Notes: a model not told the origin generated them from the letters alone. A stretch of 64,000 bases of DNA from the human T2T-CHM13v2.0 reference genome, Homo sapiens (GCF_009914755.1 NC_060925.1), one strand, 5' to 3'. Shown: positions 25,731 through 50,081, counted from the first letter of the stretch. Program-made: numbers and translations.

Positions 25731-25789
25731 CAGGATCTGGGGGAGGGGCACAGACTCTGGGAAGGAGGAAATAAAATAATAATTATTAT

Positions 25790-30600: not shown

Positions 30601-30951
30601 GTCAGTTGTTTCCTGTCTGTAGGGATAATGCTTCATATATCATCTGTGTCCTCCACAGCCTCTATAGCACAATTATGGACACTCAATAAATATCTGATTA
30701 CTTTGCAATATGAAAGGGCAAATTTAGAGAGATTTAGCAAAGATCCAGAAGTCTTGAGATTTCTTGGAGTCTGTTGATAATCATTCCACTCCTAATGCAC
30801 TAGCAGGAAGAAGAGCTCAAGATAGCACCAGAATCTGTCTAGAATAGACCCCTGCTCCCCACTTAAAGGAAAAAAGGAACTAAGGTGTAAGCAATGTCCC
30901 TACTCTACCCTCCTCTTTCTGTCTCCAATATCCCCTTTTACAAAAATTTAC

Positions 30952-31236
30952 TCTGCACACAAATTTGGGATCTCAGGCTCCGTTTTCTGACCGTGTGAGC
31001 CACAGTATCTATCTCACACCAGAAGGACCATGAATCTTCACTCCGCATGGCACTGATCTGGAACTTCGGGGAGCTGCTCCAGCCTGATCCCAGGGTCTGG
31101 CCATCTCCGAAGAAGCAGAACTGGAGCTGGACTTCTGATCTCTCTAGAGAGAGCCGGGTCTCACAGATCAGGGTCACTGGGCTCCCTTTGGTGGGCTGGG
31201 AGGAGCTGGCTCTCAGCACTGGACGTGAAAACAGCT
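30952..31236 (-). pseudogene. FCRL D3-type Ig exon (285 nt, open)
   Basis: ttctctctag|AG...CAGA|gtaaat; (E)LFSRPVLRASSSQPTKGSPVTLICETRLS...FWCEIDTVAHTVRKRSLRSQICVQ; both Ig cysteines present. Confidence 0.9.
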
Positions 31237-31521
31237 CTAGAGAGAAGAATCACAACAGGCCCAGAGCAATGAGGCTGAGATGTGCTCTGGAGAAAAACAC
31301 ACTTCAAGCAGCAGCACATCCAAAAGCAGGCAAAGAAACGGATGCCATCGATCCCTGACTTCCTTCAGCCCAAAGCAATACTGTACTTCTTTTGGTCCTT
31401 GTAGGAGTATACCCTGAGGTTTAATGGTATTCCAGCCCACCCTGTTCCTCCTGTTCTACCTCTGTGTCCCCAGGGAGTCTCCTTTTGACCAACTCACTTC
31501 ACAAAATAATGAAGGCTTTAC

Positions 31522-31770
31522 CTTGGACTTGGATTTTGACTATGTTGGAAGAAACAGAGAAATTACTTCCGTTAAATCCAGTAAAGTGATATGCACCATT
31601 GTCTTTGAGACTTGCGTGATGAATATGGAAGTCAGAGCTTTTATTAAGGAATGTCAGGACGTTACCATTCTTGTACATAGTATTCAGTGTTACTTCCGCC
31701 TTTGCCCGGCACCTCAGAACCACGAAGTCTCCTTCAAACACAGAAAGTGGAGCTTGCAGGATCAGTGAAG
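31522..31770 (-). pseudogene. FCRL5 D2-type Ig exon (249 nt, open; second Cys replaced by Phe)
   Basis: tttctcatag|CT...CAAG|gtaaag; (A)SLILQAPLSVFEGDFVVLRCRAKAEVTL...DNGAYHFTG...VKIQVQ. Confidence 0.9.
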
Positions 31771-32619
31771 CTATGAGAAACACAACAGCAGTTATTTGGT
31801 TCATCTCATCGTTTCCCTTTTCCTCTCATTGTTTTTCAAAATAGACTGTATTTCAAAAAATGGGTTGGGAAAAAGGATTGTTACAATAATTATAATTTAT
31901 TTTTTTCTGTTTAAACACTTGAGCTTTGAGAAAAGTTCAAAAGCAAAAAGTTGAAAGGTAAAAATCATCTAATGTCTCACCAGCCACATTTTGGCATATG
32001 TTTTTCCAGTTTTCTCTTCCATCTTCATATACTTGACAGTCTATGTGTATTTTTTATGGAATGGGAATTATAATTATAGATTTGATAACTTGTTTTTCAA
32101 TTAGTATATTATGAAAATTTTTCTGTGCTATTAATATCATTCCTGAATCTGACTTTCAGTGGCCACAAAATGTTCCCTAAATGGCCGTAACGTAATTTAT
32201 TGAATGAGTCTTATTCTTGACCATTTACAGTCTGCAGTTTTCAGGGATGGACATCTATGATTGTTTCAGAAGGCAAATTCTTAAGAGAGAGATTGTTAAG
32301 TCAAAGAGCATAAGCATTTTATTTGTTCCTTGCTACCACACTGCTTCTTTTCTCACTAAATTAAAGGACTTTAGGATGACATGGTTTCAATTTCAAAACA
32401 GGTGGTTTTAGGGCAAAAAAAGGAAATGTCTCTTCCTTTATCTCTCATTCTCTCTCTACTTCTCCATCATCTATCTCTCTCTCTCACTTTTTCTTTCTCT
32501 AAATAGAAAATAATACTCCTGCTACTTATTATTGCAAACAAATAATATAGCTTAAAACTATACATAGATTCAGGAACCCTTCAAATAAATTACTCCTCAA
32601 ATATTCTTTTACTAAAGCA

Positions 32620-32760
32620 GCTTGCAAAAATACAAATTCCTGGGCCCTACTCTCATAGCATTTTACTCAGTAAATATAGGGTAGGTCCTCAGTATCTGCG
32701 TGATTAATAAGCTGCACAGGATATGTGACACAAATTGATCTTTAAGAACCACGAGTTTAG
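32620..32760 (+). mobile_element. MER5A-like DNA transposon fragment
   Basis: 'aaaaatacaaattcctgggccctactc...tttaagaaccac'. Confidence 0.55.
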
Positions 32761-33041
32761 AGACATTAATGCACTCAGTAGAAATTGCAGTGTTTGCATG
32801 GTTCATCCATGTAAACTTTAGTTGATATTTATGAGAATTATATCCGTCTAGATACACTACTTGAAGTCAGTGTCCCATGGGCTGAATGAGTTTTATACAG
32901 ATAATTTAAATTTTCATCATTTTAATATTTAAACTTAAGCAGCTAATCTCATTCCCTGTCTGGTTGTATTCTGAGGTTTGTACTCTCTCCCTGTCTTACT
33001 ACAGTGTGAAATAAAATTGTCCACTCACAAAAGGTCTGAAG

Positions 33042-33109
33042 CAAACTTACTCATGTAACCAAACAGCACTTGTTCCCCAAAACTATTGAAATTAAAAAAA
33101 AAAGAAAAA
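33042..33109 (+). mobile_element. Short 5'-truncated L1PB 3' end with polyA
   Basis: 'acttactcatgtaaccaaacagcacttgttccccaaaactattgaaattaaaaaaa'. Confidence 0.75.
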
Positions 33110-33759
33110 CCCAGCTCTTCATTTAATAAAGTCAAACTTTGCAGAATTACCTAAGTAAAAATAAAAAGTTTTACCATTTTCTTTATTTTTCAGAAATTAT
33201 CTTTGTTGAGTATTTGGTGATACTTTCTTGATCTTTTCTATGTGTAAGTACACTTATATAGACACACAAATAAATACATTAAAAGCACACATGTGCATGG
33301 GATCACAATAACATAGTGGTCTACAACCTGCTTTTTCCCCTTGGCAATATATTATGGGCATCTTTCTGTGGTATTACTTAAAGATCTAAATCACTAATTT
33401 TTAAAATTCATCTGTATTAAGGCATAATTTACACACAATAAAGTACAACTCTTAAATTTGCAACTTGATAATTTTGGATAAGTATTACCTGATTATTCTT
33501 AGCAATGACAAAGTATTCCATTGTATAGGTATGCTATAATACATTTAAGCATTTTTCCATTAATGGATATTTGGGATGTTGCTGCTTCTTAAATGTCAAG
33601 TAATGTTGTTTTAAGTAATTCTGTAGATATATTATTGTATATTTACACATGCATTTCTTAGGATAAATTCTTAAACATGGAATTTCTGGGATGAAGTATA
33701 CAAACATTTTAAGTAATATCATATATTGTCAAATTGTTCTTCTAAAAGACTGGACCTTT

Positions 33760-34962
33760 TAAAATACAAAAGTACAGGCAACAAAAGCAAACATTGGACA
33801 AGTGGGATTACATCAAGCTGAAAAGAATTTGCACAGCAAAGGAAACAATTAACAGAGTAAAGAGACAACTTATAGAATGGGAGAAAATATTTGCAAAGTA
33901 TATGCCTGACAAGGTGTTAATATCCAGAATATATAAAGAACTTAAGGAACTCAACAGCAAAAAAAAGAAAAAAAAAGAAACGGATTTAAAAACGGGAAAA
34001 ATACTTTAACAGACATTTCTCTAAAGAAGACATAAAAATAAACAACAGGTGCATGAGAAAACATGCTCAATATCACTAATTATTGGAGAAACACAAATCA
34101 AAACTCCAATGAGGTACCACCTCATTCCAGTTAGAATGACTGTTATCAAAATGTCAAAAGAAAACAAGTGTTGGTTAGGTTGTGGAGAGGAAGGAACCCT
34201 TACATTGCTGGTGGCATTGTAAATTAGTACAGCCACTAAAAGAAACAGCATGGAAGTTTCTCAATAAAATAAAAATAGAGCTATCATATTATCCAGCAAT
34301 TTCACTGCTGGGTTGATATTCAGAGGAAATAAAGTTGCTATGTTAAAGAGATATCTGCACTCTGAAGTTTATTGCAGCACTATTCACAATAGCCAAGATG
34401 TAGAAACAATCTAAGTGTCCACCAACAGATGAATAGATAAATAAAATGTGGTATATATACACAATGGAATAGTATTCAGCCATAAAAAATAATGAAATCC
34501 TGTGATTTGTAGCAATATGAAAAGACCTGGAGGATGTCATATTTAATGAAATTAGCTAGGCACAGAAAGACTGATACTGCATAATTTCACTCATATTTTG
34601 AATCTAAAAAAACCAAAGTTGATATTATAGAAGCAGAGAGTAGAACAGTGGTTATCAAAGATTGGGGAGGGGAGAGGGAAGAGGAGGATAGGGAGAAGTT
34701 GGTCAATGTGTACAAAGTTATAATTAGGAGGAATAAATTCTGTTCTATTGGACAGGAGGGTGATGATGGTTAACAGTCAGGTACAGTATATTACAAAAGA
34801 GCTAGAAAAGAGGCTTTTGAATGTTTTTATCCCAAAGAAATGATAAATGCATGAGATGATGGGTAGAGTAAATCTCCTAATTTGATCATTATACACCATG
34901 TATATGTATCAAAACATCACTTCTATAAATATATACAATTACAATGTGTCAATTAAGAAGAA
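33760..34962 (+). mobile_element. L1MA 3' portion inserted in an antisense L1ME
   Basis: ORF 33794-34009 [24 protein letters not shown]; L1MA 3'UTR. Confidence 0.85.
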
Positions 34963-35482
34963 AATGTTGAACCAATTTACACTTGTAATAATGGTGTACA
35001 AGAGTTTCTGTTTCTTCTTTCCCTGATCATTTATGGCCATATCAATGCACAGGTTTATTTTTATTATTTATTTTTTGTCAGTCCTAATATCTATGGTTGC
35101 TCGACCCGAAGAATTCACTTGTTCTATCCTATGTGACATTACAGGCTGCTAGTTGGTTTTCCATGGAATTTTAGTGAAGTATAAACCATTAATGATGAGT
35201 TACTGTTGCCAAAGTATTCAGAAATGATTTACAAAATGGAGATTTTGAAATCTGTCATTAATTTTTAAAAACTGTCCATTCTTTTTCAATTGTGAAATAA
35301 TTCACAATTTACTCTGAAATAATAATAATCATGAGAAAATGATTGTTCCTTTGCTTCCTCTCCTTCCTCTGAACAAGTGATTATTCTTTGTTACATTTTT
35401 TTTTATATTTTCAGTGTTTATAATAGTTACTTTCTATTCTGTGACCATAATTCGCACAGTTGATTAGCCTTTGTTTCTGTAT

Positions 35483-35665
35483 CTAAATCAGTGGTTTCCA
35501 GTCTTGTTCACAGAATATTCTCACCTGAGGATATGTCAAAAAATATTGATTCTGTGGCCCCATCTGTGAGATTCTGAATTGAATTAGTCTGGAGAGGGGC
35601 TTAGTAATGTGTCTTTTGCAAAGTTCTTTGATGGTTCTAATGTGCAGCCAGGGTTGAGAGCCAGT
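35483..35665. mobile_element. MER5A DNA transposon
   Basis: 'cagtggtttcca...gatggttctaatgtgcagccagggttgagagcca'. Confidence 0.75.
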
Positions 35666-37334
35666 CATAATGCGGTTTCCTCATTATGAGTCCTTTATAT
35701 TCATTTACATCTTGTTGGACTAGATTTTGTCATTAGGTGATTTTTCAAGAAGGGTTAGTGCATTCTCATTTTCCTGAATCCCTGTATTTTTGACAACGCC
35801 TTTTTGATTTCATATAAAATTCTCAGTGGTTATTCCTCCCTTGGAGGTCCAAGTCTGGACATCATTCCTCTCTTTTTGGCACTGAGTGCTCTGCAAAGTC
35901 TAAGACTAACTTGATATTTTTCTTTCTGAGATGACTGTTTTTTCCCCATGATCATAAACACATACGTATATTTTTAACCTCAAAGTTCAATAACCTCATC
36001 AACACATATGTTCTGATCTACCTATTCAAGTTTTCTTTACTTCCCAACAATTTCTACTACATCTTTGAGTTTAATTTTACTCTTTGGTTCAATTTTCTGA
36101 GGGTCTCCATTTTAATTATCCACATAACTGGATAATTGGGGGGGGCTCCATTGTCTGATTTCCATATTATAATTTTTCCTTTATTTCTGTATCTTTCTAC
36201 TTTGCATTCTGTATTGTTTTCTCAGATTGGTTCTTCATTCAATTAACAGTTTTCAAAGGTATCCATAAATCACAAATATTGACTGAGGACCTACTGTGTG
36301 CCAAACACTAAGTAGGCACAAGGATGTTGTGGAGACCAAGATGGATGCAGTTCTGTTCTCATGAATCTTACATTCCATTGGCATTAAGGGTAACAGTCAA
36401 GAAACAGAAAATAAAGAGGCTTAAGATGCTGCTAAACATGAGAAGAAAGTAAAACATGGACAAAAACATGGTAATGGGATACAGAATGCATGAAGTGTAG
36501 AAGCTTCCTAGATAGATTTGGCTCTGACTTTGGAGTAGTCTCAGAACATTTAAACTTTAAAAATAACCTCTTTACTCAACAAGTTATACCACGAGCATGT
36601 CTGACACATCAGGCTCAAGATTTTTCTATCATACTATTTTGCTTCTCTGAAAAGAAAATAAACTTTCCCCCAGTTTCTACTAAACAAAGATTCAAGTAAA
36701 AAAAGAAGCAACTTAGCTCCCAAGAAGACACCAAATCATACAATTTGCATACGTTTCTTGAATGTATGTCACACTTCAATAAAAGTTTTTTTAATAATGC
36801 AATAAAATGATACTGATTTTAGTGGATTAGAAAACAAGGGATCATAAAAACTCTGGAAGTCTGAGGAGCTGGTTCCTAGGGAGCCATTTCCCCCTTTGTT
36901 CAAAAGCAGCCTTCTCCAAATCTACCATAGGAGTTCTAACTGCTTGGAAATCCTTTGGAGAATTTAAGGTCTTGACCAATATTTATCTATAAGACTGTTC
37001 TTGTAGCTAAGTTAATATGTAAATGTCAGTAGAGAAATAGGACATGCTCTGTGCATCAAGAAAAATTGGAGTACTGATATAACATGCAATAAATGAGAAG
37101 AAAATACAGTAAAGAAATTCATTTGCTAAAAGCTAGGGAAGCTACTGAGCTACTTTAGGGGTCTGGCTGAGCCAGGACTTATAAGTACTGAGAACCCCAG
37201 CTAGTTAGTTGAAGAGGAAGCCAAGAAGGGGATTAAGTTGATTAGGGGAGGAAACTGGACAGACAGATTTTTAAAGGAATGGGTGAGAGAGAACTGGGCC
37301 AGGGGTGGGTGATTGGCAGGAACCCAGCACTTAC

Positions 37335-37613
37335 CAGTGACAAAGAGGCTCACCACCTCACTGCGCTGGGGACCAAAGCCATTGTCAGCTGTGCAGTAGT
37401 AATTCTCTGAATGTCCTTCAGTCAGAGAGAAGCTGAAGGACACTCTTCCCACAGAGGGTGTTGAGCTGCTCCCCAGGGGCACATCCTCATGATAAAACTG
37501 ATATGGGATTCATGGAGAACCTCTCTGGACCTTACAGTGAAGAGTCACAGTGGCTCCTTCAAAAGTCAGGGCCTCAGCAGAGCTGAGGGTGAGGACAGGA
37601 TGAGACACAGGGA
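37335..37613 (-). pseudogene. FCRL5 D6-type Ig exon (279 nt) with premature TGA at 37510-37512
   Basis: cctcag|TC...ACTG|gtaagt; VPVSHPVLTLSSAEALTFEGATVTLHCKVQRGSP*IPYQFYHED...YYCTADNGFGPQRSEVVSLFVT. Confidence 0.93.
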
Positions 37614-38692
37614 CTGAGGAAGAGAAAAAATGAGTCAAGAGTTGCTTTTGCCTCTTATTGTAGATTTTGCCTCTTATTATAGATTTCAATGCTTGGCCAG
37701 TGCCCAGATGCCCAGTCTCCAGTCCAGGATCTCCAGGCTTCACCTATCTGGAGGGCAGCCAAGCAACTTCTCAGGTTTCTTTGACCAGCTCCCCTATCCT
37801 CCATGCCTGTCTTTCCCTATCTGTTCATTTTTCCAGCAGACCAATAGTCTCTTCTTCTCTCATGGCTCCCTTTATACTGTGGTCTGCCTTCCTTTTGCAG
37901 AGGAGAGGATGCTTTCAAGGAAGAAATTCCTTGTCTTACCACCACCAGACTCACTTGCACCAGCTCTTCACTCCTTCCTGCAACCATGCAGGCTTCCCTG
38001 CAACCATGGAAGACCCATGCCTGGCCTGCCCAAGGGGGATTTTCCTATGTCTCTTGACCTACACACACCTGCCTCTGTCCCAGACATGAAGTTCTTACCT
38101 CTACTGGCTTCTTCCAAACACCATTTTGATGTGTTTAACCATCTCCATATAAGAAAAACTATCGGACAATATAAAAACAACCTTATTTGTATTTGAAGTT
38201 CCTCACAATCTGTTTCTCCACTTTTCTGTGGACAAACTTCTGGAAGAAGTGACCTACATTTATCATCTCTACTTCATTATCTTATATCTCGTATGCACAT
38301 TTTGTCCATTACAACTTGGATTTTACCCCCAATAATCTACTAAAGCTGATTTTTCATGTTTATTAATGTAGTAATGACGATAATGATAAAAATAAAAAAG
38401 ATATTTGTTATAAGACACTATAGTACCTTTAAGTTCTGGTGTATGTATATTTGTTGGATGTAATTTATAAATATTGATATGTATACAGACATTAATTTAT
38501 TCATGAAAACAATTCAATGAGGTGAGTACTATTGTTGTCCCTACTTCACAGATGAAGATGCTGAGGCCCCGAATGGTTGAGTCGCACAGCTAGTAAGTGA
38601 AGAGGCAGCAGTCAAACCCAGGTATTGTGGTTCTAGTCTGTGTTCTTCTGCCAAAGAGTACTTTGTGGCTAAATTCACTGGATGTGACTCAG

Positions 38693-38988
38693 TTTTGTTT
38701 TTGTTTTTGAGACAGAGTCTCACTCTGTCGCCCAGGCTGGAGTGCAGTGGCAATCTCAACTCACTGCAACATTCGCCTCCTGAATTCAAGCGATTCTCCT
38801 GCCTCAGCCTCTCGAGTAGCTGGGATTACAGGTGCCTGCCATCATGCCCAGCTAATTTTTGTATTTTTAGTAGAGACGGGGTTTCACTATGTTGGCCAGG
38901 CTGGTCTCGAACTCCTGACCTCAGGTGATCCACCTACCTCGACCTCCCAAAGTGCTGAGATTACAGAAGCGAGCCACTGCGCCTGGCT
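38693..38988 (-). mobile_element. AluSx-type element
   Basis: Full Alu; TSD 'tga(c/t)tcagtttt'; absent from the paralogous intron copy near 43060. Confidence 0.9.
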
Positions 38989-40074
38989 CTGATTCAGTTT
39001 TTATCATTCATCATCTCTTGGCTTTGCCTTATCCAATCTGGCTCACTATCTTCTGCTTAGAACACGTTCTGCCCTTGGTGACAGTGGTACCCACTCTCAT
39101 AGCGCCTCTTCCCTCAGCCAGAGTCCTTCCTTCTCATGTCTCATCTCCCATACTGGGACTGGCCTGGGGTTTCTGTCCCACTGGACACTCTCTTGTTGGG
39201 CCCCCTCCTTCACTCCTGGCTGCTCCCCAAACTGTCTACTCTATGACCTGATCCTCACTGTGCTGCTGGAGTGGTTTTCCCCAACATTTAAAACCTTCAT
39301 GGAGCCCAAATTCCCCTGTAGAATATGGCCCAAACCCTTACTCTGCTTCTAAGTAGGTTCTAACGATGTCATCTTCCCCAACCTTATCCTGCATTTCTCC
39401 ACTGTTCCGTCTATGCTTCAGTCATCAAGAACTGACCACTCTCCAGTTCCTGGAAAGTGTCCTCCCTCCCTCACCACAATCCTCTTCTCCTGCAGGTCTC
39501 AACTCACCCATGAGCTCTTCTAAGAAATTTTTTCTCACTTCCCAACTCAGATTGGCCTGCCTTTCTATCTGCTCCTGCAGCCACCAGGTACTTCTATCCT
39601 CAGATTGATGTTTTCTCTATTACTTGTCTGCATTTGCTATTAGCCCCTATGAACCATGTGGGCAGGGCCAGTTTAGTCTAGTCTTAGATGCATCCTTAGA
39701 TGTCAGTACAGTCTGGTCCATGAAATATATGCAATCAGTATTAGGTGAAGAAATGAGTCATTGAATAGGACTTTAAACATCTCTGACTGAGTTTGATCAC
39801 GATGTCACTGTCTCCACTTTCCTTAGGCCTTTGGATGTCAGGGGCACAGTTCTCTTTCTAAGTCATGTGATATCTTCCCCCAGGTTCCCTGGTCCTCTCC
39901 TCCACAATCTCACACATCCATGTGGGAGGGACTGGACTCTCCCTCGTCTTCCAAGCTGGTATTATTGTTTCACAGGAGAGGAAACTGAGACTGCTTCCAG
40001 GCCCAGCGAAGACTGGACACTCTGTCAAAAGTATAGGCCCAAATCACACTGTCTCCTTAAAAATTGAACCTACC

Positions 40075-40365
40075 GGCCAGGCGCGGTGGCTCACACTTGT
40101 AATTCCAGCACTTTGGGAGGCTGAGGCAGTTGGAAAACAAGGTCAGGAGTTCAAGACCAGCCTGACCAACATGGTGAAACCCCGTCTCTACTAAAAACAC
40201 AAAAATTAGCCAGGTGTGGTGGCAGGTGCCTATAATCCCAGCTACTCGGGAGGCTGAGGTAGAGAACTGCTTGAACCCAGGAGAGAGAGGTTGCAGTGAG
40301 CCGAGATCATGCCACTGCACTCCAGCCTAGGTGACAGAGTAAGACTCCGTCTTAAAAAAAAAAAA
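40075..40365 (+). mobile_element. AluS (Sg-like) element
   Basis: Full Alu with polyA; TSD 'aaaaattgaacct'. Confidence 0.9.
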
Positions 40366-41063: not shown

Positions 41064-41342
41064 CAGTGACAGAGAGACTCACCACCTCACTGTGCTGGGG
41101 GCCAAAGCCATTGTCAGCTGTGCAGTAGTAGTTCCCTGAATGCTCTGCAGTCAGAGGGAAGCTGATGGCCACTCCTCCTGCAGAGTGGGCTCACCTACTC
41201 CCCAGGGTGACATCCTCATGTTGAAACTGGTACACGATGGGGAGTGAACCTCTCTGGGCTTCACAGTGAAGTGTCACCTTGGCTCCCTCAAAATTCAAGT
41301 CCTTAGCAGAGCTGAGGGTGAGGACAGGATGAGACACGGGGA
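41064..41342 (-). pseudogene. FCRL5 D5-type Ig exon (279 nt) with premature TGA at 41191-41193
   Basis: ctctcag|TC...ACTG|gtaagc; VPVSHPVLTLSSAKDLNFEGAKVTLHCEAQRGSLPIVYQFQHEDVTLGSR*AHSAGGVAISFPLTAEHSGNYYCTADNGFGPQHSEVVSLSVT. Confidence 0.93.
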
Positions 41343-41396
41343 CTGAGAGAGAGAAAAAATTAGTCAAGATTTGTTTCTGCCTCTTACTGTAGATTT

Positions 41397-42056
41397 TGTA
41401 AAAGGAAAATAAATCTTGGGAACCCCAAATCACTAAGCCAAAGGGAAAGGTCAAGCTGGGAACTGTTTCAGGCAAACCTGCCTTTTATTTTATTCCTTAA
41501 TATGATAACTTCAAAGACTTTTTTAAAAGCTACATACCTCCCTCAAAATTTGTCCACTGAAATATTTCTTTGTGGGCCCCAAGATCTTTACCCTAAAATG
41601 GTTCTGTTTTAAAGGGTCCTGTTTTATCCTAACAGTGTAAATTGACAGCTGATTTTCACAAGTGCAGGACAAAAGACAGAACTTTAAGTCATTGCTGCTT
41701 ACAGGAGACAAATGCATATCTGATTGTTTCCCTGACTTAAAAATGCAGACTCCTGGGCTAGAGGAAGACAGAAGTGACTATTTCCTCTGCCCTGCCTTTC
41801 ACATGTAAATCGTAGATTCTGATAAAGGCTGATCAAAGACTCAAATGAGTGAAACTGTTTGTCTCTTACGTATGGACACCTTTTAAAAATTTCTTCCTCT
41901 TTCTCCAATATCTGCTCTTCCCTCTTTAAATATTGATGCCTTCAAAATCATCTTTGGAGAAGGCAGAGAGCTGAATCTGGGGCACATGTGTTTAACCATG
42001 GCAAACTAATCTTTCCAAATTGATTGAGACCTGTCTCAGGTAGTTTTTGGCTCAAA
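41397..42056 (+). mobile_element. MER4A-type ERV1 solo LTR
   Basis: 'tgtaaaaggaaaataaatcttgggaaccccaaatcactaagccaaagggaaaggtcaagctgggaactg'; absent from the paralogous intron near 37685. Confidence 0.8.
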
Positions 42057-43696
42057 GATTCAATGTTTGGCCAATGCAGATGTTCAGTCTCCAGTCCACA
42101 GCCTCCAGGTTCCACATACCCACAGGGTGACCCAGCCACTTCCCAGGCTTCTTTCACCAGCTCTCCTATCCTCCATGCTGGTCTTTCCCTGCCTGTTCCA
42201 TTTCCACCAGACCTCTCGTCTTTTCTCCCCTCCCAGCTCCCCTTGTTGTATGACCTGCCTCTCTCTTGCAGAGATGTTGCTTTCAAGGAAGAATTCCCTT
42301 GTCTTGCCACCAGCTGAACCACACCCTTACCTGCACCAGCTCCTCACTCAGTACTGTGCCCTGAGACCATGGAAGAGCCTCCCTGGCCTGACTGTGGGGG
42401 ATTCTCTTCAGTCTCTTGATCCTGTGCACACCTGCCTCTGTCCTAGAAAAAACGTTCTTACCTCCACTGGCTTCTTGCAAACACCATTTGCATGTGTTTA
42501 ACCCTCTCCATGTTAGAAAAACCATGAGACAATAGAAAAACAACCCTATTTGCATTTGAAGTTCCTCACAGTCTGTTTCTCCACTTTTCTGTGGTCAGTC
42601 TTCTGGAATAAGTGACCAACATTTATCATCTCTACTTCTTTATCTCATATCTCATATGCACATTTTCTTCATTCCAACTCTGTTTTTATCCCCAACAATC
42701 TACTAAAGCTGATTTTCATGTTTCTGAATATAATTATGATGATAATGATAAAAATAATAAAATAGATGTTTGTTTTAATGACACTACAGTGTCTTTAACT
42801 AAGTTCTGGTGTTTGTATATTTGTTGGATGTAATTTGTAAATATTGATATATATACAGACACTAATTTAATCATCAAAGCAATTCATTGAGGTGGGTACT
42901 ATTGTTGTCCCTATTTCACAGGTGAAGATGCTGAGGCCCCGAGTGGGTGAGTCACACAGCTAGTAAGTGAAGAGGCAGCAGTCAAACCCAGGTATTCTGG
43001 GTCTAGTCGGTGTTCTTCTGCCAAAGAGTACTTTGTGGCTAAATTCACTGGATGTGACTCAGTTTTTATCTTTCGTCATCTCTTAGCTTTGCCTTATCCA
43101 AACCGGATCACTCTCTTCTGCTTAGAACTCGTTCTGCTCTTGGTGACAGTGGTACATACTCTCATACTGCCTCTTCCCTTGCCCAGAGTCCTTCCTTCTC
43201 ATGTTCCACCTCCTCTACTGGGACCGGCCTGGGTGTGCTGTCCAATCGGACACTATTTTGTTGGGCCCTCTCCTTCACTCCTGGCTGCTCCCCAAACTGG
43301 CTACTCTGTGACCCATTTCTCACTGTGCTGCTGGAGTGGTTTTCCCCAACATGTAAACGATTCATGGAGCCCAGATTGCCCTGCAGAATGTGGCCCAAGC
43401 CCTTACTCTACTTCTAAGTATAGTCTAACCATGTCTTCTTCCCCAACCTTATCCTTCCTTTCTCCACTGTTCAGTCTATGCTGCACTCATCAAGAAGTGA
43501 CCCCTGTCCATTTCCTGGAACATGTCCTCCCTCCCTCACCACGATCCTCTTCTCCTGAAATGTTCCCACTCATCCTCAGGTCTCAACTCACACATGAGCT
43601 CTTCTAAGACATTTGTTCTAACTTCCCAACTGAGATTGGCATGCCTTTCTATCTGCTCCTGCAGCCACCAAGTATTTCTATCGTCAGGTTGATGAT

Positions 43697-43791
43697 GAAA
43701 CAAAATCCCTTGCAAGTCGGAGTCACTCTCTCTCCTTGGAAGACTGTGGTCCATTGAGGCTGGAGGAAAATAACGGACTTGTGTGTCCTTG
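43697..43791 (-). pseudogene. FCRL5 D1-type exon, 5' part only
   Basis: ctttccttgtcag|CA AGG...; (A)RTHKSVIFLQPQWTTVFQGERVTPTCKGFCF, then abrupt switch to intronic sequence. Confidence 0.88.
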
Positions 43792-44997
43792 CTGACAAGG
43801 AAAGAGAAAAGGAGTCTGAGGTGTAGGTACCTGCAGATCCAGCCTCAGGGCCTCCTGATGCATAGGCTGAAGGACCTGGGTTTGGAGGATCTGAAAGAGG
43901 TCCTCTGGGAGGGTCACTGATAACTTAAAGCTCCCTGTCAGTCTATGGCCCTCACCTCGCCCAAGGGAGAAATTGACCAGGGATGGCAATGAGCAAAATG
44001 ATTTCAGGAAGGTGACACCAGCAGGATTCGCCATCAAATATCACAGTTAGGTAGCCTTACATGGGAGTGGGTCCCAGAGAAAATCAACACTACGCTGCCA
44101 TTTCATCATGTTCATACACTCATAAAAAACTCCAAAGGTGATGATAAAATCACAATTTTGCACTTTCCCTAAGAGAATAAATCATATTATCTTAAGATTT
44201 GTCCCTGAGAAAACCTTGAGAGCTCAACTTACCTAACATCTTTATTTTGTAAATGATGATTCAAATGCCCAGAAGAATCCCACCATAGCTAATTGTGTCA
44301 GAGCAAAGAAGAGACAAGTCACTCACTGACATCCAGAGGTGACCAGGACAAGGTTACAGCTGGGGCCACTGATTTGGACAAGGAGAGCGGTAGTAGAGGG
44401 TTCTTGCTGTTCATGGATTCTCAATTATCCACTCTGAGCCAAAGGAATGGCAGTGAGAGCCAGAACTAATTAAATGTGGGATGCAGATAACTTGTCTTCT
44501 CCCCATCTCCCCTTTCTGTGCCTTTCTTTTTTGTAAGGACCCAGTTATTGGATGTCCTGGAGGATTAACTCCAAAGTGTAGAAAATGCAGCATTCCTGCT
44601 GGCATCAGCACAGTGGAATGTTTTCAGAGGATTTTTCTGGCTCGCTGATTGGAGAGGATCCTATCCTGAGTCCAGCACACTTGCCATGGAGTTGAAGATG
44701 TCCTGCCTGGCTAAATGGGGTCTGTTGGCAATAACAGTAAATGCAGGGCCTAGCAAAAGCCAGGAGCTGCTTGGGCATTCATCCCTTCCCCCAGGGAGGG
44801 TCAGGGGGTGACCATGGAGCTATCCTGGCCCTTGGGCGATGCCAGTAAACCAGGCATCACTTTCAAATCCCTGCTGACCTCAGCAAGAAAACAGGAGATA
44901 TTAGAGAGCTCAGGCAGCCATCACAAATGTTTTCTATTTATTAGGAAGAGACACTCTTTACCAGAGATGCTGAAGAGCCAAAGACAGGAGAACTCAC

Positions 44998-45018
44998 CAA
45001 GCTGTCCACTGACAGGAG
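44998..45018 (-). pseudogene. FCRL S2 21-nt signal mini-exon (APVSGQL)
   Basis: tatttttgcag|CTCCTGTCAGTGGACAGCTTG|gtgagt; a 21-nt S2 exon is a hallmark of FcR/FCRL genes. Confidence 0.9.
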
Positions 45019-45129
45019 CTGCAAAAATAAGAGCCAGAGATGAACATAGAGCCAAGAGCATTTTGTTTTAAGAAGGTAATTCCTTTTTTTCCCATGCATG
45101 TATTACCTCTCCCATTAAAAAATTCATTT

Positions 45130-45810
45130 TTAAAAAATCTAATAATTATTCATCAAATGTTCATATATACTAAGGCATGGTGCTTGGATTTTTTAAATGA
45201 ATTTTAAAAATGGTATCCGCCTTCAAGAAGTTGACTGGTGGAAAAACAGAAACACAATGTAAAGTAATATAATTGTAACACAAGGTGTAAGTGCAATAAC
45301 AGAAATACACATCGGGAATCTTGGGGGCAGAAGAGCCACCTAGCCCAGTGTATAGGACATATGAGTGTGTGTAGGGTATGTGTTTGTGTGTATATTTGTT
45401 GAAGGGGGCAGATGGATCCTTGAAGGTACCTGAAGGAGATGATACTTCACAAAACTGTGAGTGAGAACATGAGTCTGCAGGTGGATGTTAGCATTTGTGT
45501 GTGGAGAGAGGTGATGGGGAGAGTAATCAAGGCAGAAAGGGCACAGAGGTGGAGAAATGACATTAGTACTCAGGAGTTGGGAGTGTTGGGGGAAATAAGA
45601 TCATAGAAGCTTGCAGGGCCCACATAAGTGGCTCTAATTTTATTATAAAAGCCACAAGGTGTCATGGAAAGGTTTCAAGGAGGAGATTGAGAGGGATAGA
45701 ATTTGAACTTCGATGGAGCACTCTGTCAGTGGATAGACTTCAGTGAGACACAATATGAAGCAGGGAGACTGATTAGAAGGCAGGGCAAGGAAATGGACAT
45801 GAATTAAGCC
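45130..45810 (-). mobile_element. L2 remnant
   Basis: L2 antisense motifs ('catggaaaggtttcaaggagg', 'gaagcagggagactgattagaagg'). Confidence 0.6.
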
Positions 45811-47499
45811 TCATTTGGGCACCAGACTCCAGGCTATATTCTTTTCATGAGATCATTGAATCCAAGGGCTCATAATCATCATATTTAATTTTTAAATAAT
45901 TAAATTAGCCTCAGGTCACTTTGCCTCTGGTCACAGAGCTAGAATGTTACAAAGATAGGATAAACCTCATTGTCTCTAAATTTTAGTACCATGATCTTTT
46001 TATTAAACTATGCTCTCTGAGAAAGTCAGAGAAAGAGACCCTAACATTAAGTAGGTTAGCAAAAGCCTTATCTCTTGCTCGGGGATGGCCAAGGAACCAG
46101 GGAGTACACATGGTGTAGGGTAGTTATGGGACTTTCTTCATATGATTTCATGTATCAGGGTCTCAAATGGATCAGAACAAATAAGTAAATATTTGGGGAC
46201 AGGATGTTTCCCTTTTACATCCAAATGGCTTCTGACCCTTGTGCAGACTAGGGGCTAGGAAGTTGAACAAGGGTCAGTATCAAATACTGACTATGTAAGT
46301 AAAAAAGGAAGAGATGAAAGGAATTTGTTCTGAGCCTGGACCAAAGATTTGGATATAAGACCATTCCTGCGAATATCTTTTTTTCCAGAGTTGCCTCCCT
46401 GCTCCCCAGTATGGACTTCCAACTGGGTAGTCCCCAGAAGCCTCAGTGCATCTGTGACCAGGGGAAGAGGCTGTCTCGATGCCTGCCCTTCCTTTGTCAG
46501 GTGTACAATATTCCCTTTGTAGAAGGCATCAGAAATCACAACTCTTGTGCAGTGCAGAGCAGGAAGGTGTCAGAGAGAGTGAGTGAGGTAGGCAGAACCA
46601 AAGTGACTGGGCCCGGTGGAAAGGAGTACAGTTCCCTGCAGCTGTTGGGGACATGGGTTGGTGTGGACTTCCCAGGCTCCTCTGCTGGGCACTATTACTC
46701 CAAAGCCAAGGAGAAGAAACAGAGGGGATCTTACAGGACTGTCCTCTGATGGGAACTGCAGGAGGGACAGGCATGAGAAATTAGCCTCGGCTGCACACTC
46801 ACACTTTCCCTTCTGTGCCTTCTCTGTGTCACTCTACTCCAACCCAAACAGCAAAGAACACTTCTCCAGTTCAACATCAGGACGGATTGGCACCTCTGCA
46901 GTTCTCTTTTTTTGGTATCAGATGCTGATGTGGAATTTCACGGAGGCAGGAAGGACAGAGGAGAAGGACGTCCAACCCTTCCCTTTCCTCAGCAGCTGGT
47001 TTCCCTAACTGCTCTCTGGTTTGGCTTTACTACACAAAGTGGGGTTTAGCAGATGCCTGATCTTACTAAGATCTTACCTGGCAGACAGTGCCTTTGCAAG
47101 AGCGCTCAGTGGAGGCAACTTCCTTGATCATTCATTCATTCACTCACTCTTCCAACAAACATTCTTTAAGCACTTACTATGCAGGCATTGGCCTAAATAT
47201 TGTAGTTACCAAGAAGAATGAAATACTGCTCCTACCCTCAAGAAACTTATAATCTACTGGAGGAGAAACTAAGTTAATAAGCAGTATAACATAGTGTGGT
47301 AGGGCTATGATAAGGGGAAGTATAGAGCATTGTAAGAGCACTGAAAAGAATATCCAACTTCCCCCTTTTGCTGAATAAGAAAAGACCATTTATGCAGCTT
47401 GTGATATAACAGGAGTAAGTCAGAGTCAAAATGTTGAGCCTGTTTTGTTGAAACCTGAGATTCAGTTTTTCTATCATTTTTCAAATGTTTTAAATACTG

Positions 47500-49790
47500 T
47501 TTGTATTTTAAAAAGTGAAACAATCCATGCATACTCTCAATTTCATAGTTGATCTGGTTTCACTACTTGTTCCCTTCCAAACATTAACCTTGTATGTGCA
47601 TAATCTTAACCTAGTTTTCGTGTTAAGACTCTGTTTTTTATTCTGCTCTTTTTCTCTCAATATTATCATAATAACTACAATGAATATCATTGTGTATATT
47701 ATCTTCTGCAGTCTTACCCCTTTATCTTAGCTTTCTGGAACTGGGGGTACTGAGTCAAAATATACTTATTTATGTTATTTCTTGTTAACTGGCTTTCTAA
47801 ATGAGCTTTACCATTTCCACTGCCACAGCAATGTATAACTTATCCAACCTTCCTACACTGTACAGTATCCAGCATTTGGGGGTTGTTGTTGCTGCAAATT
47901 TAATGACTGCAAATTGTACCTCTGTGTGCATTTCCTGAATGCATTTATTCATTAATATAAGACATATTTATTGAATGCCAGCTATGTGCCAGGCACTCTG
48001 CTAGGTTTGGAGGATAAGCAACGGGTTTTATGAAGCTTGCAGACAAGTAAGCAGCAGCTACAAAGAGTGTTTGTGTATTCTATAATTCTGACATTTATCC
48101 TTTTACCCAATAACATTTTCAAGTTTTTTTGGCCAATGAACATGAATTCTTTATATCATATCTCAATTATTTGCCTTACTTGCTGCAAATATCCTAATGC
48201 AACATTAGTTGCTATTAAGGTTATGTTATTATTGTAATACAAAATTTTTTAAGTTTTAGATTTAAAATCTCTAATCCTTCTACTACTTCAATGTTTAGGA
48301 AGAAATAATTTATATTAAAAAATAGTCTTAATTTTATTTTCTATCATGTTTTTGATAATTAAAAAATATAATTATAATTATCTGAACTTTATTTTTAAAT
48401 TTGTAGGAGAATTGTAAATATCTATTGTATTATGATGTCTATTTTTTGTATATTAAATAACATGTAATTAGATATATTTCTGGGTTTGTATTATTTTCCA
48501 TTGACCTATATTTATATGGAATCTATTCTTTAATGTATATAATTAGATTTCCAATGTTTCTGTTTTTTTAGAAAAGAATCTATCTTTTGGCATTCTTACC
48601 AACATATTTTTCAAGATACACTTTTGAATATTTTATTGAGTTCCAAGGAAAATTCCACAGGTAGTTTGAAATTATACAGAATCTACAAATTCACTTGGGG
48701 AGAACTGATCTCTTTATAACATCTTTAATATTTCTATCCAGGCTAATGATATGTCCTTATACATTGAAGTATCCTTTGTACAGTTTTATATATTTCCTTT
48801 TCTTGGTTAAAAAACTCTAATTATTCCTATGTTTTCACTTTTATTGCTATTGTAGATGATATTTCTTTATTATAATCTCCAAGTGGTAATTAATAATATT
48901 CACAGATTTCATAAGTTTTGATATTTATGGTCAATCTTCCTAATTCATGAATATTCATAAATTTATAACTATACCACATAGATGATATGATCAAGAGCAG
49001 GGGCTGTATAATTCATAGCAATAATAGCAAACAAGCTGGTGATAAATAAATGCACTGGGAATGATTAAAGAATAAATAATACTTTTTAAAATCTTGGCTT
49101 CCTATATGTATGCTTCCTATTTTTGTTACTAATTTAGTGTGTTGGCCAGGATCTAAAAACTATTGCATATGATGATGATTGCAATCATCTTGGTTCTAGC
49201 TCCAATTTGAATGGCAATTTTAGTCTTGTTTTTAAGGTGTAATATTGGCTGTCAGTCTAGAACACATTCTTTATCATGTTAAGTAAGGATTCTTCTGGCT
49301 TAAGAATAATTATTTTTGGAATGGATATTGATTTTTAATACTTATGTCAATACTTTTGACACCTGTTGTCATTATATAATTTCTTTTGTTTGTTTTTTGT
49401 TTTGAGAGACAGGGTCTCAGTCTGTTGTCCAGACTGGAGTGCAGTGGTGTGATAACAGCTGACTGCAGCCTCAACCCCCCAGGCTTAAGTGATCCTGCCA
49501 CCTCAGCTTCCTGAGTAGCTGGGACTACAGGCACACAACACCACACCTGGCTAATTGTTTCTGTAGAGATGAGGTTTCGCCATGCTGCCCAGGCTGGTCG
49601 CAAACTCCTGGGCTCAAGCGATCTGCACATCTCAGCCTTCCAAAGTGCTAGGATTATGAGTCACTGTGCCTAACCAACATAGTTTCTTTTACTTAGCATT
49701 TTGATGTGTTTTTTTTTCATATAATAACAGTGAATTTCCATATAGTCTTCAATTCTGATACAAATCCTACTTGGTAGTATTTAGTGTAAA
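47500..49790 (-). mobile_element. Degraded L1ME fragments with nested L2 and Alu
   Basis: AT-rich antisense L1 motifs ('gaatctacaaattcacttggggagaactga', 'ttctttatcatgttaag'). Confidence 0.55.
49385..49677 (-). mobile_element. AluJ element
   Basis: 'gagacagggtctcagtctgttgtccag...ctcctgggctcaagcgatc' AluJ diagnostics. Confidence 0.9.
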
Positions 49791-50050
49791 GATTTAAATG
49801 GATTAAAACATATAAATTACTAGTGAGCACTCAACAAATACTAACATTTCTATTATCATCATTTTGGTTTTGATGTGCTGCTAAATTCTTATTTAAGAGG
49901 CCAGGAGCTTATAGTCCAAAAACATTTGCCCAGTCCCCTCTCAGCCTAGAGACTGCCTTAGGACAAAATACAACAGAAGATTTTGTGAGCATCTGAGGTT
50001 AGCGCTCAGTGCCCACCCAATCCAGGTCTAGATTCACGGTGTCCACTCAC

Positions 50051-50081
50051 CTAGAACCAGCATCAAAGGCCACAGCAACAT
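50051..50081 (-). pseudogene. FCRL S1 exon coding part (MLLWPLMLVL)
   Basis: caggtcctcATGTTGCTGTGGCCTTTGATGCTGGTTCTAG|gtgagt; MLLW start typical of FCRL proteins, 31 nt, phase 1. Confidence 0.9.

What the first reader, a model, noticed from the sequence alone, without database searches (positions are those of the whole stretch)
30938..50081. Exon-scrambled FCRL5-like gene: S1-S2-D1(half)-D5-D6-D2-D3
Seen: a complete FCRL leader architecture and five Ig-type exons with canonical splice sites. Knowledge (recalled FCRL5 sequence): the D5/D6-like exons should follow D2-D3-D4. Here they precede D2/D3; D4, D7-9, TM and ITIM exons are absent. Inference: either a D5-D6 block landed in and destroyed D1 of one gene, or two tandem FCRL paralogues were fused by deletions. 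Either way it records an extra FCRL family member and a snapshot of phase-1 exon shuffling.
Basis: partly seen in the sequence, partly recalled or inferred. Interest (0 to 1): 0.8.

Follow-up and report, generated by a model that had tools for sequence, protein, structure and literature searches.

The report
Dead chimeric FCRL5-like receptor gene
Between FCRL4 and FCRL3 lies the unannotated wreck of an extra Fc-receptor-like gene, whose first immunoglobulin-domain exon was split by a 10.7-kb copy of two later FCRL5 exons; New World monkey gene models suggest it is still whole there.

Summary
On the minus strand the window holds S1 (50081-50051), S2 (45018-44998), the first 95 of 255 nt of D1 (43791-43697), D5 (41342-41064), D6 (37613-37335), D2 (31770-31522) and D3 (31236-30952). 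Exons and introns are colinear with FCRL5 in three blocks.

D5-D6 is a 10,651-bp copy of FCRL5 intron 4 to intron 6. It replaces 232 bp of D1 and its intron. One junction has 2 unassigned nt and the other 3 nt of microhomology. It diverges 5-18% from FCRL5, so it is not an assembly artefact.

A SLAM-like C2 exon (25757-25443) and a transmembrane exon (24749-24625) follow, both broken. Predicted New World monkey proteins (Saimiri, Cebus and one unnamed record) join S1-S2-D1-D2-D3 to this C2 and transmembrane part, with D1 whole and no D5/D6. The human D3 groups with them (99/91).

So this is the unprocessed pseudogene of an FCRL5/SLAM-like chimeric gene that predates the New World monkey split. 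The D5-D6 insertion came later on the human lineage; its timing relative to Old World monkeys is unresolved. RefSeq annotates no gene here and none was found in the searched papers. Interest is moderate.

The parts
50051..50081 (-). S1 leader exon, coding part: ATG at 50081, 31 nt (MLLWPLMLVL + G), GTGAGT donor. An upstream in-frame ATG lies at 50132.
   Evidence: same 31-nt layout as FCRL5, FCRL4 and FCRL2 S1; 76% identical to FCRL5 S1 over 46 bp and 78% to FCRL2; flanking DNA is not alignable to any FCRL gene. Cebus P0002 residues 1-28 map to 50132-50049 at 86%.
44998..45018 (-). S2 leader mini-exon, 21 nt (APVSGQL), with AG and GT.
   Evidence: 20 of 21 nt identical to FCRL5 S2 (156686641-156686621). 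The New World monkey proteins read APVSGQL, APLSGQL or APVNGQL.
43697..45914 (-). 5' FCRL5-derived block: 3' part of intron 1, S2, intron 2 and the first 95 nt of D1. It matches FCRL5 156687557-156684164, minus 1.14 kb that only FCRL5 has.
   Evidence: non-CpG K2P is 0.105 for 45914-44885 and 0.055 for 44902-43697. No FCRL5 homology upstream of 45914.
43697..43791 (-). D1 exon stump: 95 of 255 nt, CAG acceptor kept, no donor.
   Evidence: 85 of 95 nt identical to FCRL5 D1 (156684258-156684164); homology stops at 43697.
43694..43697 (-). Junction 1: D1 (FCRL5 156684164) joined to FCRL5 intron 4 (156678755), with 2 unassigned nt (AT) between them.
   Evidence: three-way view of the sequences.
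33044..43694 (-). Inserted block of 10,651 bp: a copy of FCRL5 156678755-156666950 (intron 4 part, D5, intron 5, D6, intron 6 part). It holds one Alu of its own (40071-40365) and one Alu shared with FCRL5 (38693-38987).
   Evidence: pooled non-CpG K2P 0.0887 +/- 0.0028 over 10,077 sites; 300-column alignment windows range 0.05-0.18.
41064..41342 (-). D5 exon, 279 nt, CAG/GTAAGC, one in-frame TGA.
   Evidence: 255 of 277 aligned nt identical to FCRL5 D5. Pfam Ig_2 E 7.5e-10 when read with X at the stop.
37335..37613 (-). D6 exon, 279 nt, CAG/GTAAGT, one in-frame TGA.
   Evidence: 265 of 279 nt identical to FCRL5 D6. Pfam Ig_2 E 5.1e-12.
33044..33046 (-). Junction 2: FCRL5 intron 6 (156666950, inside an L1-like stretch) joined to the D1-D2 intron (156683931) across 3 nt of microhomology (GTT).
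   Evidence: the two alignments overlap by 3 nt.
30890..33046 (-). 3' FCRL5-derived host block: rest of the D1-D2 intron, D2, D3 and about 50 nt of the D3-D4 intron. It matches FCRL5 156683931 to about 156681250. Two FCRL5 Alus are absent here.
   Evidence: non-CpG K2P 0.175 +/- 0.010 for the D2-D3 block; intron pieces 0.14-0.25 (up to 0.35 in one 300-column window).
31522..31770 (-). D2 exon, 249 nt, TAG/GTAAAG, open, 3-nt in-frame deletion, second Ig cysteine changed to Phe.
   Evidence: 225/252; 90% to FCRL5; groups with the New World monkey chimeric proteins (94/95).
30952..31236 (-). D3 exon, 285 nt, TAG/GTAAAT, open.
   Evidence: 231/285; 81% amino-acid identity to Cebus P0002 and to P0006, against 63-69% to anthropoid FCRL5; tree support 99/91.
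25443..25757 (-). SLAM-like C2-set Ig pseudo-exon (CAG acceptor, GTGAAT donor) with two in-frame TGA and a 1-nt deletion.
   Evidence: 70-80% amino-acid identity to residues 235-338 of P0006 and the matching parts of P0024 and P0063; sequence read directly.
24625..24749 (-). Transmembrane and short-tail terminal pseudo-exon (GTGTSLLFPLLWTMLAKGLVLLGLLGKLEV, then a frameshift, then NTRKEFPAEGE-stop).
   Evidence: compared by eye with the C-termini of P0006, P0024 and P0063 printed.
23297..30609 (-). SLAM-like gene body (V-C2 intron onward). It is paralogous, at about 71% and in inverted orientation, to chr1:156403351-156409690, whose V exon lies 1 kb before the start of the homology.

Best explanation
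The interval is a non-functional, unprocessed pseudogene of about 25.5 kb (50081 to 24625, minus strand), and it records two successive exon-shuffling events. (1) Before the catarrhine/platyrrhine split, a 5' piece of FCRL5, from intron 1 through S2, D1, D2 and D3 to about 50 nt beyond D3, came to lie between an FCRL-type S1 leader of unresolved origin and the V-C2 intron of a SLAM-like gene upstream of FCRL4. This made a chimeric gene, S1-S2-D1-D2-D3-C2-TM, which gene models of New World monkeys still predict as open. (2) Later, on the lineage to humans, an 11.8-kb stretch of FCRL5 itself (intron 4, D5, D6, intron 6), about 85 kb away and in the same orientation, was copied into the D1 exon. 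It replaced 232 bp: 160 nt of exon and 72 nt of intron. The junctions show 0-3 nt of homology. There is no poly(A), no target-site duplication and no long homology. The return point lies only 232 bp from the departure point. I therefore infer one replication-based template-switching event (FoSTeS/MMBIR type) or an end-joining insertion, rather than retrotransposition or unequal crossing-over. The gene has since decayed: stops in D5 and D6, a lost cysteine in D2, two stops and a frameshift in C2, and a frameshift in the TM exon. Patches of low divergence next to D1 suggest later gene conversion with FCRL5. Shown here: the anatomy, the junctions, the divergences, the orthology and the lesions. 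Inferred: the molecular mechanism, the order of inactivating events and the dates.
For: Colinearity with FCRL5, introns included, in three blocks with two sharp junctions. FCRL5 exon map of nine Ig exons. All of the 300-column alignment windows with enough aligned sites to score differ from FCRL5 by K2P 0.04 or more, and the windows flanking the junctions by 0.10-0.15. Inserted block K2P 0.089 against host D2-D3 0.175. The block shares one Alu with FCRL5 and has one Alu of its own. The New World monkey proteins P0006, P0024, P0063 and P0002 carry the same S1 and S2 peptides, a whole D1, D2 and/or D3, then a C2 and TM part that map to window 25757-25414 and 24749-24625. Trees: the human D3 groups with these proteins at 99/91, and that group is sister to anthropoid FCRL5 D3 (100/99); both together exclude the non-primate sequences (99/95). 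D2 groups likewise at 94/95. The Cebus model reads through into FCRL4, matching the human gene order (hub table). The C2-TM part belongs to a SLAM-like family found across mammals; elephant P0066 and armadillo P0067 have the same tail. The human paralogue at chr1:156402068-156409690 has a V exon where the window now has FCRL5-derived sequence. FCRL5 residues 840-977 have no match in the window.
Against: The New World monkey evidence consists of automatic gene models and one unnamed record, seen as proteins only. I could not look at their DNA, so absence of the D5-D6 block there is inferred from their whole D1 and from the absence of D5/D6 in four models. With 18 primate FCRL5 proteins, the D5+D6 tree leaves the human copy in an unresolved polytomy: the group of catarrhines plus the copy has only 46/18 support, and AU p is 0.48 for catarrhine FCRL5 held together without the copy. 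The 97/92 support seen with fewer taxa is therefore not robust. Divergence is patchy (0.04-0.35), so clock dates are rough and gene conversion blurs them. The S1 exon and the 3.4 kb of DNA between the Alu beside it and 45914 match nothing else in the genome, so the origin of the 5' end is open. No long-read or population data were available to check the assembly directly.
Confidence: 0.85

Rival explanations
1. Two or three tandem FCRL5-like copies were fused by two independent deletions.
For: Segments differ in divergence from FCRL5: 0.055, 0.089, 0.105 and 0.175. A mixture of copies of different age could produce this.
Against: The second deletion would have to end 232 bp from where the first began, in paralogous coordinates of a 39-kb gene; by my estimate the chance is about 1%. 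The New World monkey orthologues have D1-D2-D3 contiguous and end in C2-TM. No remnant of D4, D7-D9 or the FCRL transmembrane and cytoplasmic exons exists in the window.
Confidence: 0.04
2. The scrambled order is an assembly artefact, with FCRL5 reads joined wrongly.
For: None found. The region is paralogous to FCRL5, which in principle invites misassembly.
Against: The inserted block differs from FCRL5 by K2P 0.05-0.18 in every scored 300-column window. It carries its own Alu, 13-16 gap runs in each of its three large aligned sub-blocks (2-3 in the two short ones), and its own stop codons. A misjoin of FCRL5 reads would be about 100% identical. Both junctions lie in diverged sequence.
Confidence: 0.01
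3. The D5-D6 block is as old as the chimeric gene and was later homogenised with FCRL5 by gene conversion. The New World monkey models merely skip it.
For: Gene conversion does occur here. There is a low-divergence tract of 0.04-0.07 next to D1, and the D1 of P0006 groups with Callithrix FCRL5 D1 at 97/97. The D5+D6 tree does not resolve the timing.
Against: The insertion removed 160 nt of the D1 exon, yet P0006, P0024 and P0063 have a complete 84-residue D1. A lineage that inherited the insertion could not have this.
Confidence: 0.05
4. The locus is still used in humans as a non-coding RNA or a regulatory element rather than being inert.
For: The RefSeq enhancer at 25014-26213 (hub table) overlaps the C2 pseudo-exon. 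D2 and D3 are still open. Papers list clone-named transcripts of uncertain position that go with FCRL3 or B-cell genes (passages only).
Against: RefSeq has no transcript here (hub table). No expression data could be examined. Open frames of 82-94 codons after this much decay are not unusual.
Confidence: 0.1

Closest known systems
FCRL5 (human, chr1:156650413-156689576 in this assembly)
   Same: Source of S2, D1, D2, D3, D5 and D6 with their introns (81-95% exon identity). Split leader and phase-1 Ig exons. Same strand and same gene cluster.
   Different: No D4, D7-D9, or FCRL transmembrane and ITIM exons. The promoter and S1 are not copies of FCRL5's. The exon order is scrambled. The 3' end comes from another family. 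The frame is broken.
FCRLS, the chimeric FCRL/SRCR gene of mouse, rat, dog and other mammals (PMC7940838; abstract and passages seen)
   Same: FCRL Ig exons joined to exons of an unrelated neighbouring receptor family. Present in some mammalian lineages and lost in others, including most primates.
   Different: The partner there is a scavenger-receptor cysteine-rich domain, and the gene lies next to CD5L. Here the partner is a SLAM-like C2 plus transmembrane part, the gene lies between FCRL4 and FCRL3, and the Ig part comes from FCRL5.
SLAM-like genes that NCBI names 'SLAM family member 9-like', '8-like', '5-like' or 'CD48 antigen-like' in many mammals
   Same: The C2 and transmembrane exons at 25757-24625 belong to this family (131 proteins at E <= 0.001 among 756 candidates). 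Elephant P0066 and armadillo P0067 share the LLLLGLLGKLGV...FPAE tail.
   Different: The leader and V exon are absent from the window. The nearest solved structure is only distantly related: SLAMF6, 2if7, E 1e-5. Whether these genes are true SLAM-family members was not tested.
Complex rearrangements by replication template switching (FoSTeS/MMBIR; recalled, no paper read here)
   Same: A templated insertion from a nearby locus in direct orientation. Junctions of 0-3 nt. Return to within 232 bp of the departure point.
   Different: This is a fixed, tens-of-millions-of-years-old event inferred from sequence alone. End-joining capture of a fragment cannot be told apart from it.

Membership tests
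FCRL gene family | Split leader: S1 with 31 coding nt up to a GT donor, then a 21-nt S2 mini-exon | tested here: met
   same lengths as in FCRL5, FCRL4 and FCRL2; S2 is 20/21 identical to FCRL5.
FCRL gene family | One Ig domain per phase-1 exon, homologous to the FCRL/FcgammaRI domain subtypes | tested here: met
   (AG/GT, lengths 249-285, multiples of 3). (Pfam Ig_2/Ig_3). (P0063 matches FCRL5 9loc_A at E 9.6e-94).
FCRL gene family | FCRL-type transmembrane exon and cytoplasmic exons with ITIM/ITAM-like tyrosines | tested here: not met
   FCRL5 residues 840-977 have no match; no tblastx hit to the FCRL 3' exons. The 3' end is SLAM-like.
FCRL gene family | Position inside the 1q FCRL cluster, on the same strand as its neighbours | tested here: met
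   Hub table; one search gives the window's place; all exons are on the minus strand.
Unprocessed (duplicated) pseudogene | Introns retained and homologous to the parent's introns; no poly(A) tail | tested here: met
   kilobases of intron colinearity with FCRL5.
Unprocessed (duplicated) pseudogene | Lesions that preclude the ancestral protein | tested here: met
   D1 truncated. TGA in D5 and in D6. Two TGA and a 1-nt deletion in C2, and a frameshift in the TM exon.
Unprocessed (duplicated) pseudogene | No transcript or protein in humans | not testable with these tools
   Only the RefSeq table from the hub, which shows no gene there. No expression data.
SLAM/CD2 family | N-terminal V-set domain followed by a C2-set domain | tested here: not met
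   seven proteins (six SLAM-like and the Saimiri chimera P0063) find only the C2 exon in the window. The V exon's expected place is occupied by FCRL5-derived D2 and D3.
SLAM/CD2 family | Cytoplasmic ITSM (TxYxxV/I) motifs | tested here: not met
   The tail of P0006, P0024 and P0063 and of the human exon is 17 residues without tyrosine. A paralogue outside the window does have TPIYSEV.
Template-switch (FoSTeS/MMBIR) insertion | Microhomology or blunt junctions, templated copy from nearby, no target-site duplication or poly(A) | tested here: inconclusive
   3-nt microhomology at junction 2 and 2 unassigned nt at junction 1. This is compatible with the mechanism but is not proof of it.

The most novel reading that the evidence does not exclude
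New World monkeys keep a working tenth mammalian FCRL-type receptor that catarrhines lost. It would place the IgG-complex-binding D1-D3 module of FCRL5 on a SLAM-like stalk and a transmembrane helix with lysines inside it and a 17-residue tail, which would suggest an adaptor-coupled, activating counterpart of inhibitory FCRL5. The human locus would then be its carcass, killed by a templated insertion of FCRL5's own D5-D6 exons.
Probability: 0.3. Interest if true: 0.6.

Novelty: new variant of a known kind. Interest (0 to 1): 0.45.

Why it matters
[quoted passage not shown] This locus would add a further, lineage-restricted member and a second case, after FCRLS, of FCRL Ig exons fused to a neighbouring receptor family.

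It also gives base-pair-resolved junctions for two natural shuffling events of phase-1 Ig exons, one that created a gene and one that destroyed it. The donor, the recipient and a likely intact outgroup copy are all available for comparison.

There are practical consequences. The locus holds 10.7 kb that is 89-91% identical (BLAST, gaps counted) to FCRL5 introns and to exons D5 and D6, plus D1-D3 copies. These lie unannotated in RefSeq inside an autoimmunity-associated gene cluster, where they can attract mis-mapped reads or probes. A RefSeq 'enhancer' overlaps one of the pseudo-exons.

If the New World monkey gene is expressed, its D1-D3 module corresponds to the part of FCRL5 that binds two IgG Fc (PMC12757038, abstract only).

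Tried and rejected
1. I looked for FCRL5-type D4, D7-D9, transmembrane and cytoplasmic exons in the whole window by tblastx against four FCRL loci and by tblastn with full-length FCRL5 and a gibbon FCRL3. None were found.

2. I looked for DNA homology of S1, its promoter and the 5' part of intron 1 to FCRL5, FCRL4, FCRL3 or FCRL2 (one search was run on the wrong strand and repeated). Only 45-55 bp around S1 aligns (69-78%). The window's 45900-53500 matches nothing else in the genome except an Alu, and FCRL5's own promoter, S1 and intron-1 start is unique. The origin of the 5' end stays open.

3. I looked for the SLAM-like leader and V exon in the window. They are absent.

4. I tried to date the D5-D6 copy by protein trees. 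With 7 species it looked catarrhine (D6 97/92, D5 82/72). With 18 hand-picked primate FCRL5 proteins, out of the 120 listed of 288 hits, the position collapsed to a polytomy. I do not use the tree for the date.

5. Tandem fusion and assembly artefact were considered and rejected (see the rival explanations).

6. Literature. Searches for an FCRL or FcRH pseudogene, FCRL5-like names, clone names, SLAM-like plus FCRL5, SLAM family plus ETV3 plus FCRL, and FCRL exon shuffling found no description of this locus. The 2001 PNAS paper on the FcRH family, the 2002 Immunological Reviews article and the 2007 Annual Review of Immunology article are not held, so an early mention there cannot be excluded. 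Akula et al. 2014 mention an extra chimpanzee 'FcRL5L' gene (passages); whether it is this locus is unknown.

Full report
**What is there**

Stop-to-stop frames on the minus strand of 30-51 kb contain Ig-like peptides and an MLLW leader. Searching the window's own genome with 19.9 kb of this strand gave strong matches, apart from dispersed repeats, only inside FCRL5 (chr1:156650413-156689576, minus strand), and these fall in three colinear groups. I fetched the FCRL5, FCRL4, FCRL3 and FCRL2 loci and ran local BLASTN, which gave the same picture:

| Window | FCRL5 |
|---|---|
| 45914-43697 | 156687557-156684164 |
| 43694-33044 | 156678755-156666950 |
| 33046-30940 | 156683931-156681296 |

FCRL4, FCRL3 and FCRL2 share only repeats with the window.

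**Domain numbering**

The FCRL5 genomic sequence holds nine Ig exons in a row. I fixed their AG/GT borders. The window's exons align to D1, D5, D6, D2 and D3, in that order:

| Exon | Window | Identity to FCRL5 | State |
|---|---|---|---|
| D1 | 43791-43697 | 85/95 | only 95 of 255 nt |
| D5 | 41342-41064 | 255/277 aligned | one TGA |
| D6 | 37613-37335 | 265/279 | one TGA |
| D2 | 31770-31522 | 225/252 | 3-nt deletion, second Ig cysteine now Phe |
| D3 | 31236-30952 | 231/285 | open |

Each exon keeps an AG acceptor, and all but the D1 stump keep a GT donor. S1 has its ATG at 50081 and 31 coding nt before GTGAGT, exactly as in FCRL5, FCRL4 and FCRL2. The 21-nt S2 at 45018-44998 is 20/21 identical to FCRL5 S2. 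Pfam calls the four full exons Ig_2/Ig_3. Full-length human FCRL5 (P0188) finds only these five places in the window, and nothing matches its transmembrane and cytoplasmic residues 840-977. tblastx agrees.

**The junctions**

- Junction 1: D1 homology ends at window 43697 (FCRL5 156684164), and intron-4 homology begins at 43694 (156678755). Two nt between them cannot be assigned.
- Junction 2: intron-6 homology ends at 33044 (156666950, in an L1-like stretch), and D1-D2-intron homology begins at 33046 (156683931). The two alignments overlap by 3 nt.

Relative to FCRL5, the gene therefore lacks only 156684163-156683932. That is 232 bp: 160 nt of the D1 exon and 72 nt of intron. In their place stand 10,651 bp copied from an 11,806-bp stretch of FCRL5. 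There is no poly(A), no target-site duplication and no long homology at the ends.

Leaving a template, copying a stretch 5.4 kb further along the paralogue, and returning 232 bp from the starting point is what a single template-switching or end-joining insertion predicts. Two independent deletions in tandem copies would need that coincidence by chance.

**Not an artefact, and not young**

Kimura two-parameter distances to FCRL5 at non-CpG sites:

| Segment | K2P |
|---|---|
| Intron-1/S2 block | 0.105 |
| 1.2 kb before junction 1 | 0.055 |
| Inserted block, pooled (10,077 sites) | 0.0887 +/- 0.0028 |
| D1-D2 intron pieces | 0.14-0.25 |
| D2-D3 block | 0.175 +/- 0.010 |

In 300-column windows of the alignment the values run from 0.04 to 0.35, so divergence is patchy. 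The tract 45045-43806 (0.04-0.07) looks like later gene conversion.

The inserted block shares one Alu with FCRL5 (38693-38987) and has one of its own (40071-40365). FCRL5 has Alus that the copy lacks. A misassembly of FCRL5 reads would be essentially identical to FCRL5, and this is not.

FCRL5 homology fades about 50 nt past the D3 donor. A protein search with D3 (62 proteins at E <= 0.001 among 133 candidates) found its best relatives outside FCRL5 proper. FCRL5 of anthropoid primates is 63-69% identical. The best hits are a Cebus model named 'FCRL4 isoform X3' (P0002, 81%), an unnamed 380-residue record (P0006, 81%) and a Saimiri 'FCRL5 isoform X2' of 345 residues (P0024, 77%). Their sequences read MLLWPLMLVL-APVSGQL-D1-(D2)-(D3), followed by a different Ig domain and a hydrophobic tail.

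tblastn places that Ig domain at window 25757-25414 and shows two TGA and a frameshift. Reading the DNA gives:

- the exon 25757-25443 (CAG acceptor, GTGAAT donor);
- a terminal exon 24749-24625 that encodes GTGTSLLFPLLWTMLAKGLVLLGLLGKLEV, then a frameshift, then NTRKEFPAEGE-stop. The Saimiri tail reads GTGTSLVLPLLCTMLVKGLLLLGLLGKLGVEFTRKKFPAEEGK.

The pseudogene therefore spans 50081-24625.

**What the 3' part is**

Residues 233-380 of P0006 find 131 proteins (E <= 0.001 among 756 candidates). NCBI names them SLAM family member 9-like, 8-like, 5-like or CD48-like, and they come from carnivores, ungulates, whales, an elephant, an armadillo, a rabbit, a lemur and New World monkeys. Elephant P0066 and armadillo P0067 have leader-V-C2 and then the same LLLLGLLGKLGV...FPAE tail. 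The nearest solved structure is SLAMF6, and only at E 1e-5, so 'SLAM-like' is a resemblance and not a tested membership.

In the human genome P0066 matches 16 places. All lie at chr1:156.32-156.62 Mb, between the window and ETV3 by my recalled map, except the two matches in the window. Window 30609-23297 is paralogous at about 71%, in inverted orientation, to chr1:156403351-156409690. That paralogue's V exon lies 1 kb before the start of the homology. The corresponding place in the window is occupied by the FCRL5-derived D2 and D3. So the FCRL5 piece replaced the leader and V exon of a SLAM-like gene, with the breakpoint in its V-C2 intron.

**Orthology and order of events**

For the trees I chose 24 of the proteins by hand, one or two per species and gene.

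- D3 (28 rows; two segments under 45% identity were dropped). The human exon joins P0006, P0024 and P0002 at 99/91. This group is sister to FCRL5 D3 of apes and New World monkeys (100/99). Both together exclude the colugo, rodent, carnivore, pangolin and whale sequences (99/95).
- D2. The human exon joins the Saimiri and Cebus chimeras at 94/95.
- D1 is unresolved; there P0006 groups with Callithrix FCRL5 (97/97), a sign of gene conversion.

The Cebus model continues from the C2 domain into a complete FCRL4. This fits the human map, in which FCRL4 starts 25.5 kb downstream of the terminal exon on the same strand (hub table). The chimeric gene therefore existed before the catarrhine/platyrrhine split.

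P0006, P0024 and P0063 all have a complete 84-residue D1, so the insertion that removed 160 nt of D1 must have happened afterwards, on the lineage to humans. Its K2P of 0.089 lies between the recalled human-macaque divergence (about 0.065) and human-marmoset divergence (about 0.11), which suggests the catarrhine stem.

The protein trees do not settle this. With 7 species, D6 joined the great-ape FCRL5 D6 at 97/92 and D5 at 82/72. With 18 primate FCRL5 proteins, picked from the 120 listed, the copy sits in a polytomy outside the great-ape (95/92), Old World monkey (95/96) and New World monkey (99/96) groups.

**Open points**

- The S1 exon is FCRL-like but only 76% identical to FCRL5 over 46 bp. 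The 3.4 kb between the Alu beside it and 45914 match nothing, and FCRL5's own promoter and S1 have no second copy.
- A second S2-like mini-exon at 46755-46735 (14/21 to FCRL5 S2, AG and GT) hints that the FCRL5 piece landed in an older FCRL-type relic. This is weak evidence.
- I saw no primate DNA, no expression data and no GENCODE annotation.

**Comparison with what is known**

[quoted passage not shown] FCRLS is the known precedent for an FCRL chimera, with an SRCR domain as partner. Eight literature searches found no account of a pseudogene between FCRL4 and FCRL3 or of an FCRL/SLAM-like fusion. The early FcRH papers and reviews were not readable. RefSeq lists no gene at 24.6-50.1 kb (hub table).

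**Verdict**

This is a real, old, unprocessed pseudogene of an extra FCRL-type chimeric gene. Its scrambled exon order is explained at base-pair level. The finding is of moderate interest: pseudogenes are common in immune-receptor clusters, but the doubly shuffled history and the possibly living New World monkey orthologue are new as far as I could check.

Noticed in passing
L022, chr1:156424143-156428857, minus strand (outside the window): A SLAM-like paralogue whose V, C2, transmembrane and two cytoplasmic exon equivalents align to New World monkey proteins P0120 and P0169 without stop codons inside the exon parts. Its tail contains TPIYSEV, an ITSM-like motif. It may be an open gene in humans. 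The leader exon was not found, the splice sites were not checked, and its annotation status is unknown to me.
   Followed up: partly
chr1:156.32-156.62 Mb (outside the window) and window 25384-25760: The elephant 'SLAMF9-like' protein P0066 matches 16 places in the human genome. Fourteen cluster on the far side of FCRL5 from the window and two lie in the window. Nine of the sixteen carry stop codons. This looks like a decayed gene family that is expanded in other mammals.
   Followed up: partly
window 46735-46755, minus strand: A second 21-nt AG...GT mini-exon (reads VPIRGQS), 14/21 identical to FCRL5 S2, inside a 73-bp alignment at 67% (E 0.12) to the FCRL5 S2 region. It may be the S2 of an older FCRL relic to which S1 belonged. 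The New World monkey proteins do not use it.
   Followed up: partly
window 25014-26213: The RefSeq 'enhancer' in the hub table overlaps the SLAM-like C2 pseudo-exon (25757-25443). The 'silencer' at 27334-27403 lies in the intron upstream of it.
   Followed up: no
window 43806-45045: A tract with K2P of only 0.04-0.07 to FCRL5, flanked by 0.11-0.13 on both sides. In the D1 tree the unnamed chimeric protein P0006 groups with Callithrix FCRL5 (97/97). Together these suggest recurrent gene conversion between FCRL5 and this gene around D1.
   Followed up: partly
window 53226-61130, minus strand: The lncRNA LOC105371457 (hub table) ends 3.1 kb upstream of the pseudogene's S1 on the same strand. I did not examine whether its transcription relates to the dead gene's promoter region.
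   Followed up: no
window 7800-14900: Long stretches similar to many places in the FCRL5, FCRL3 and FCRL2 loci (L1-like, 68-96% identity). Window 7867-11357 is also similar (68-83% nt; up to 78% aa) to chr1:156801568-156807235, just beyond the window. I took these to be interspersed repeats.
   Followed up: no
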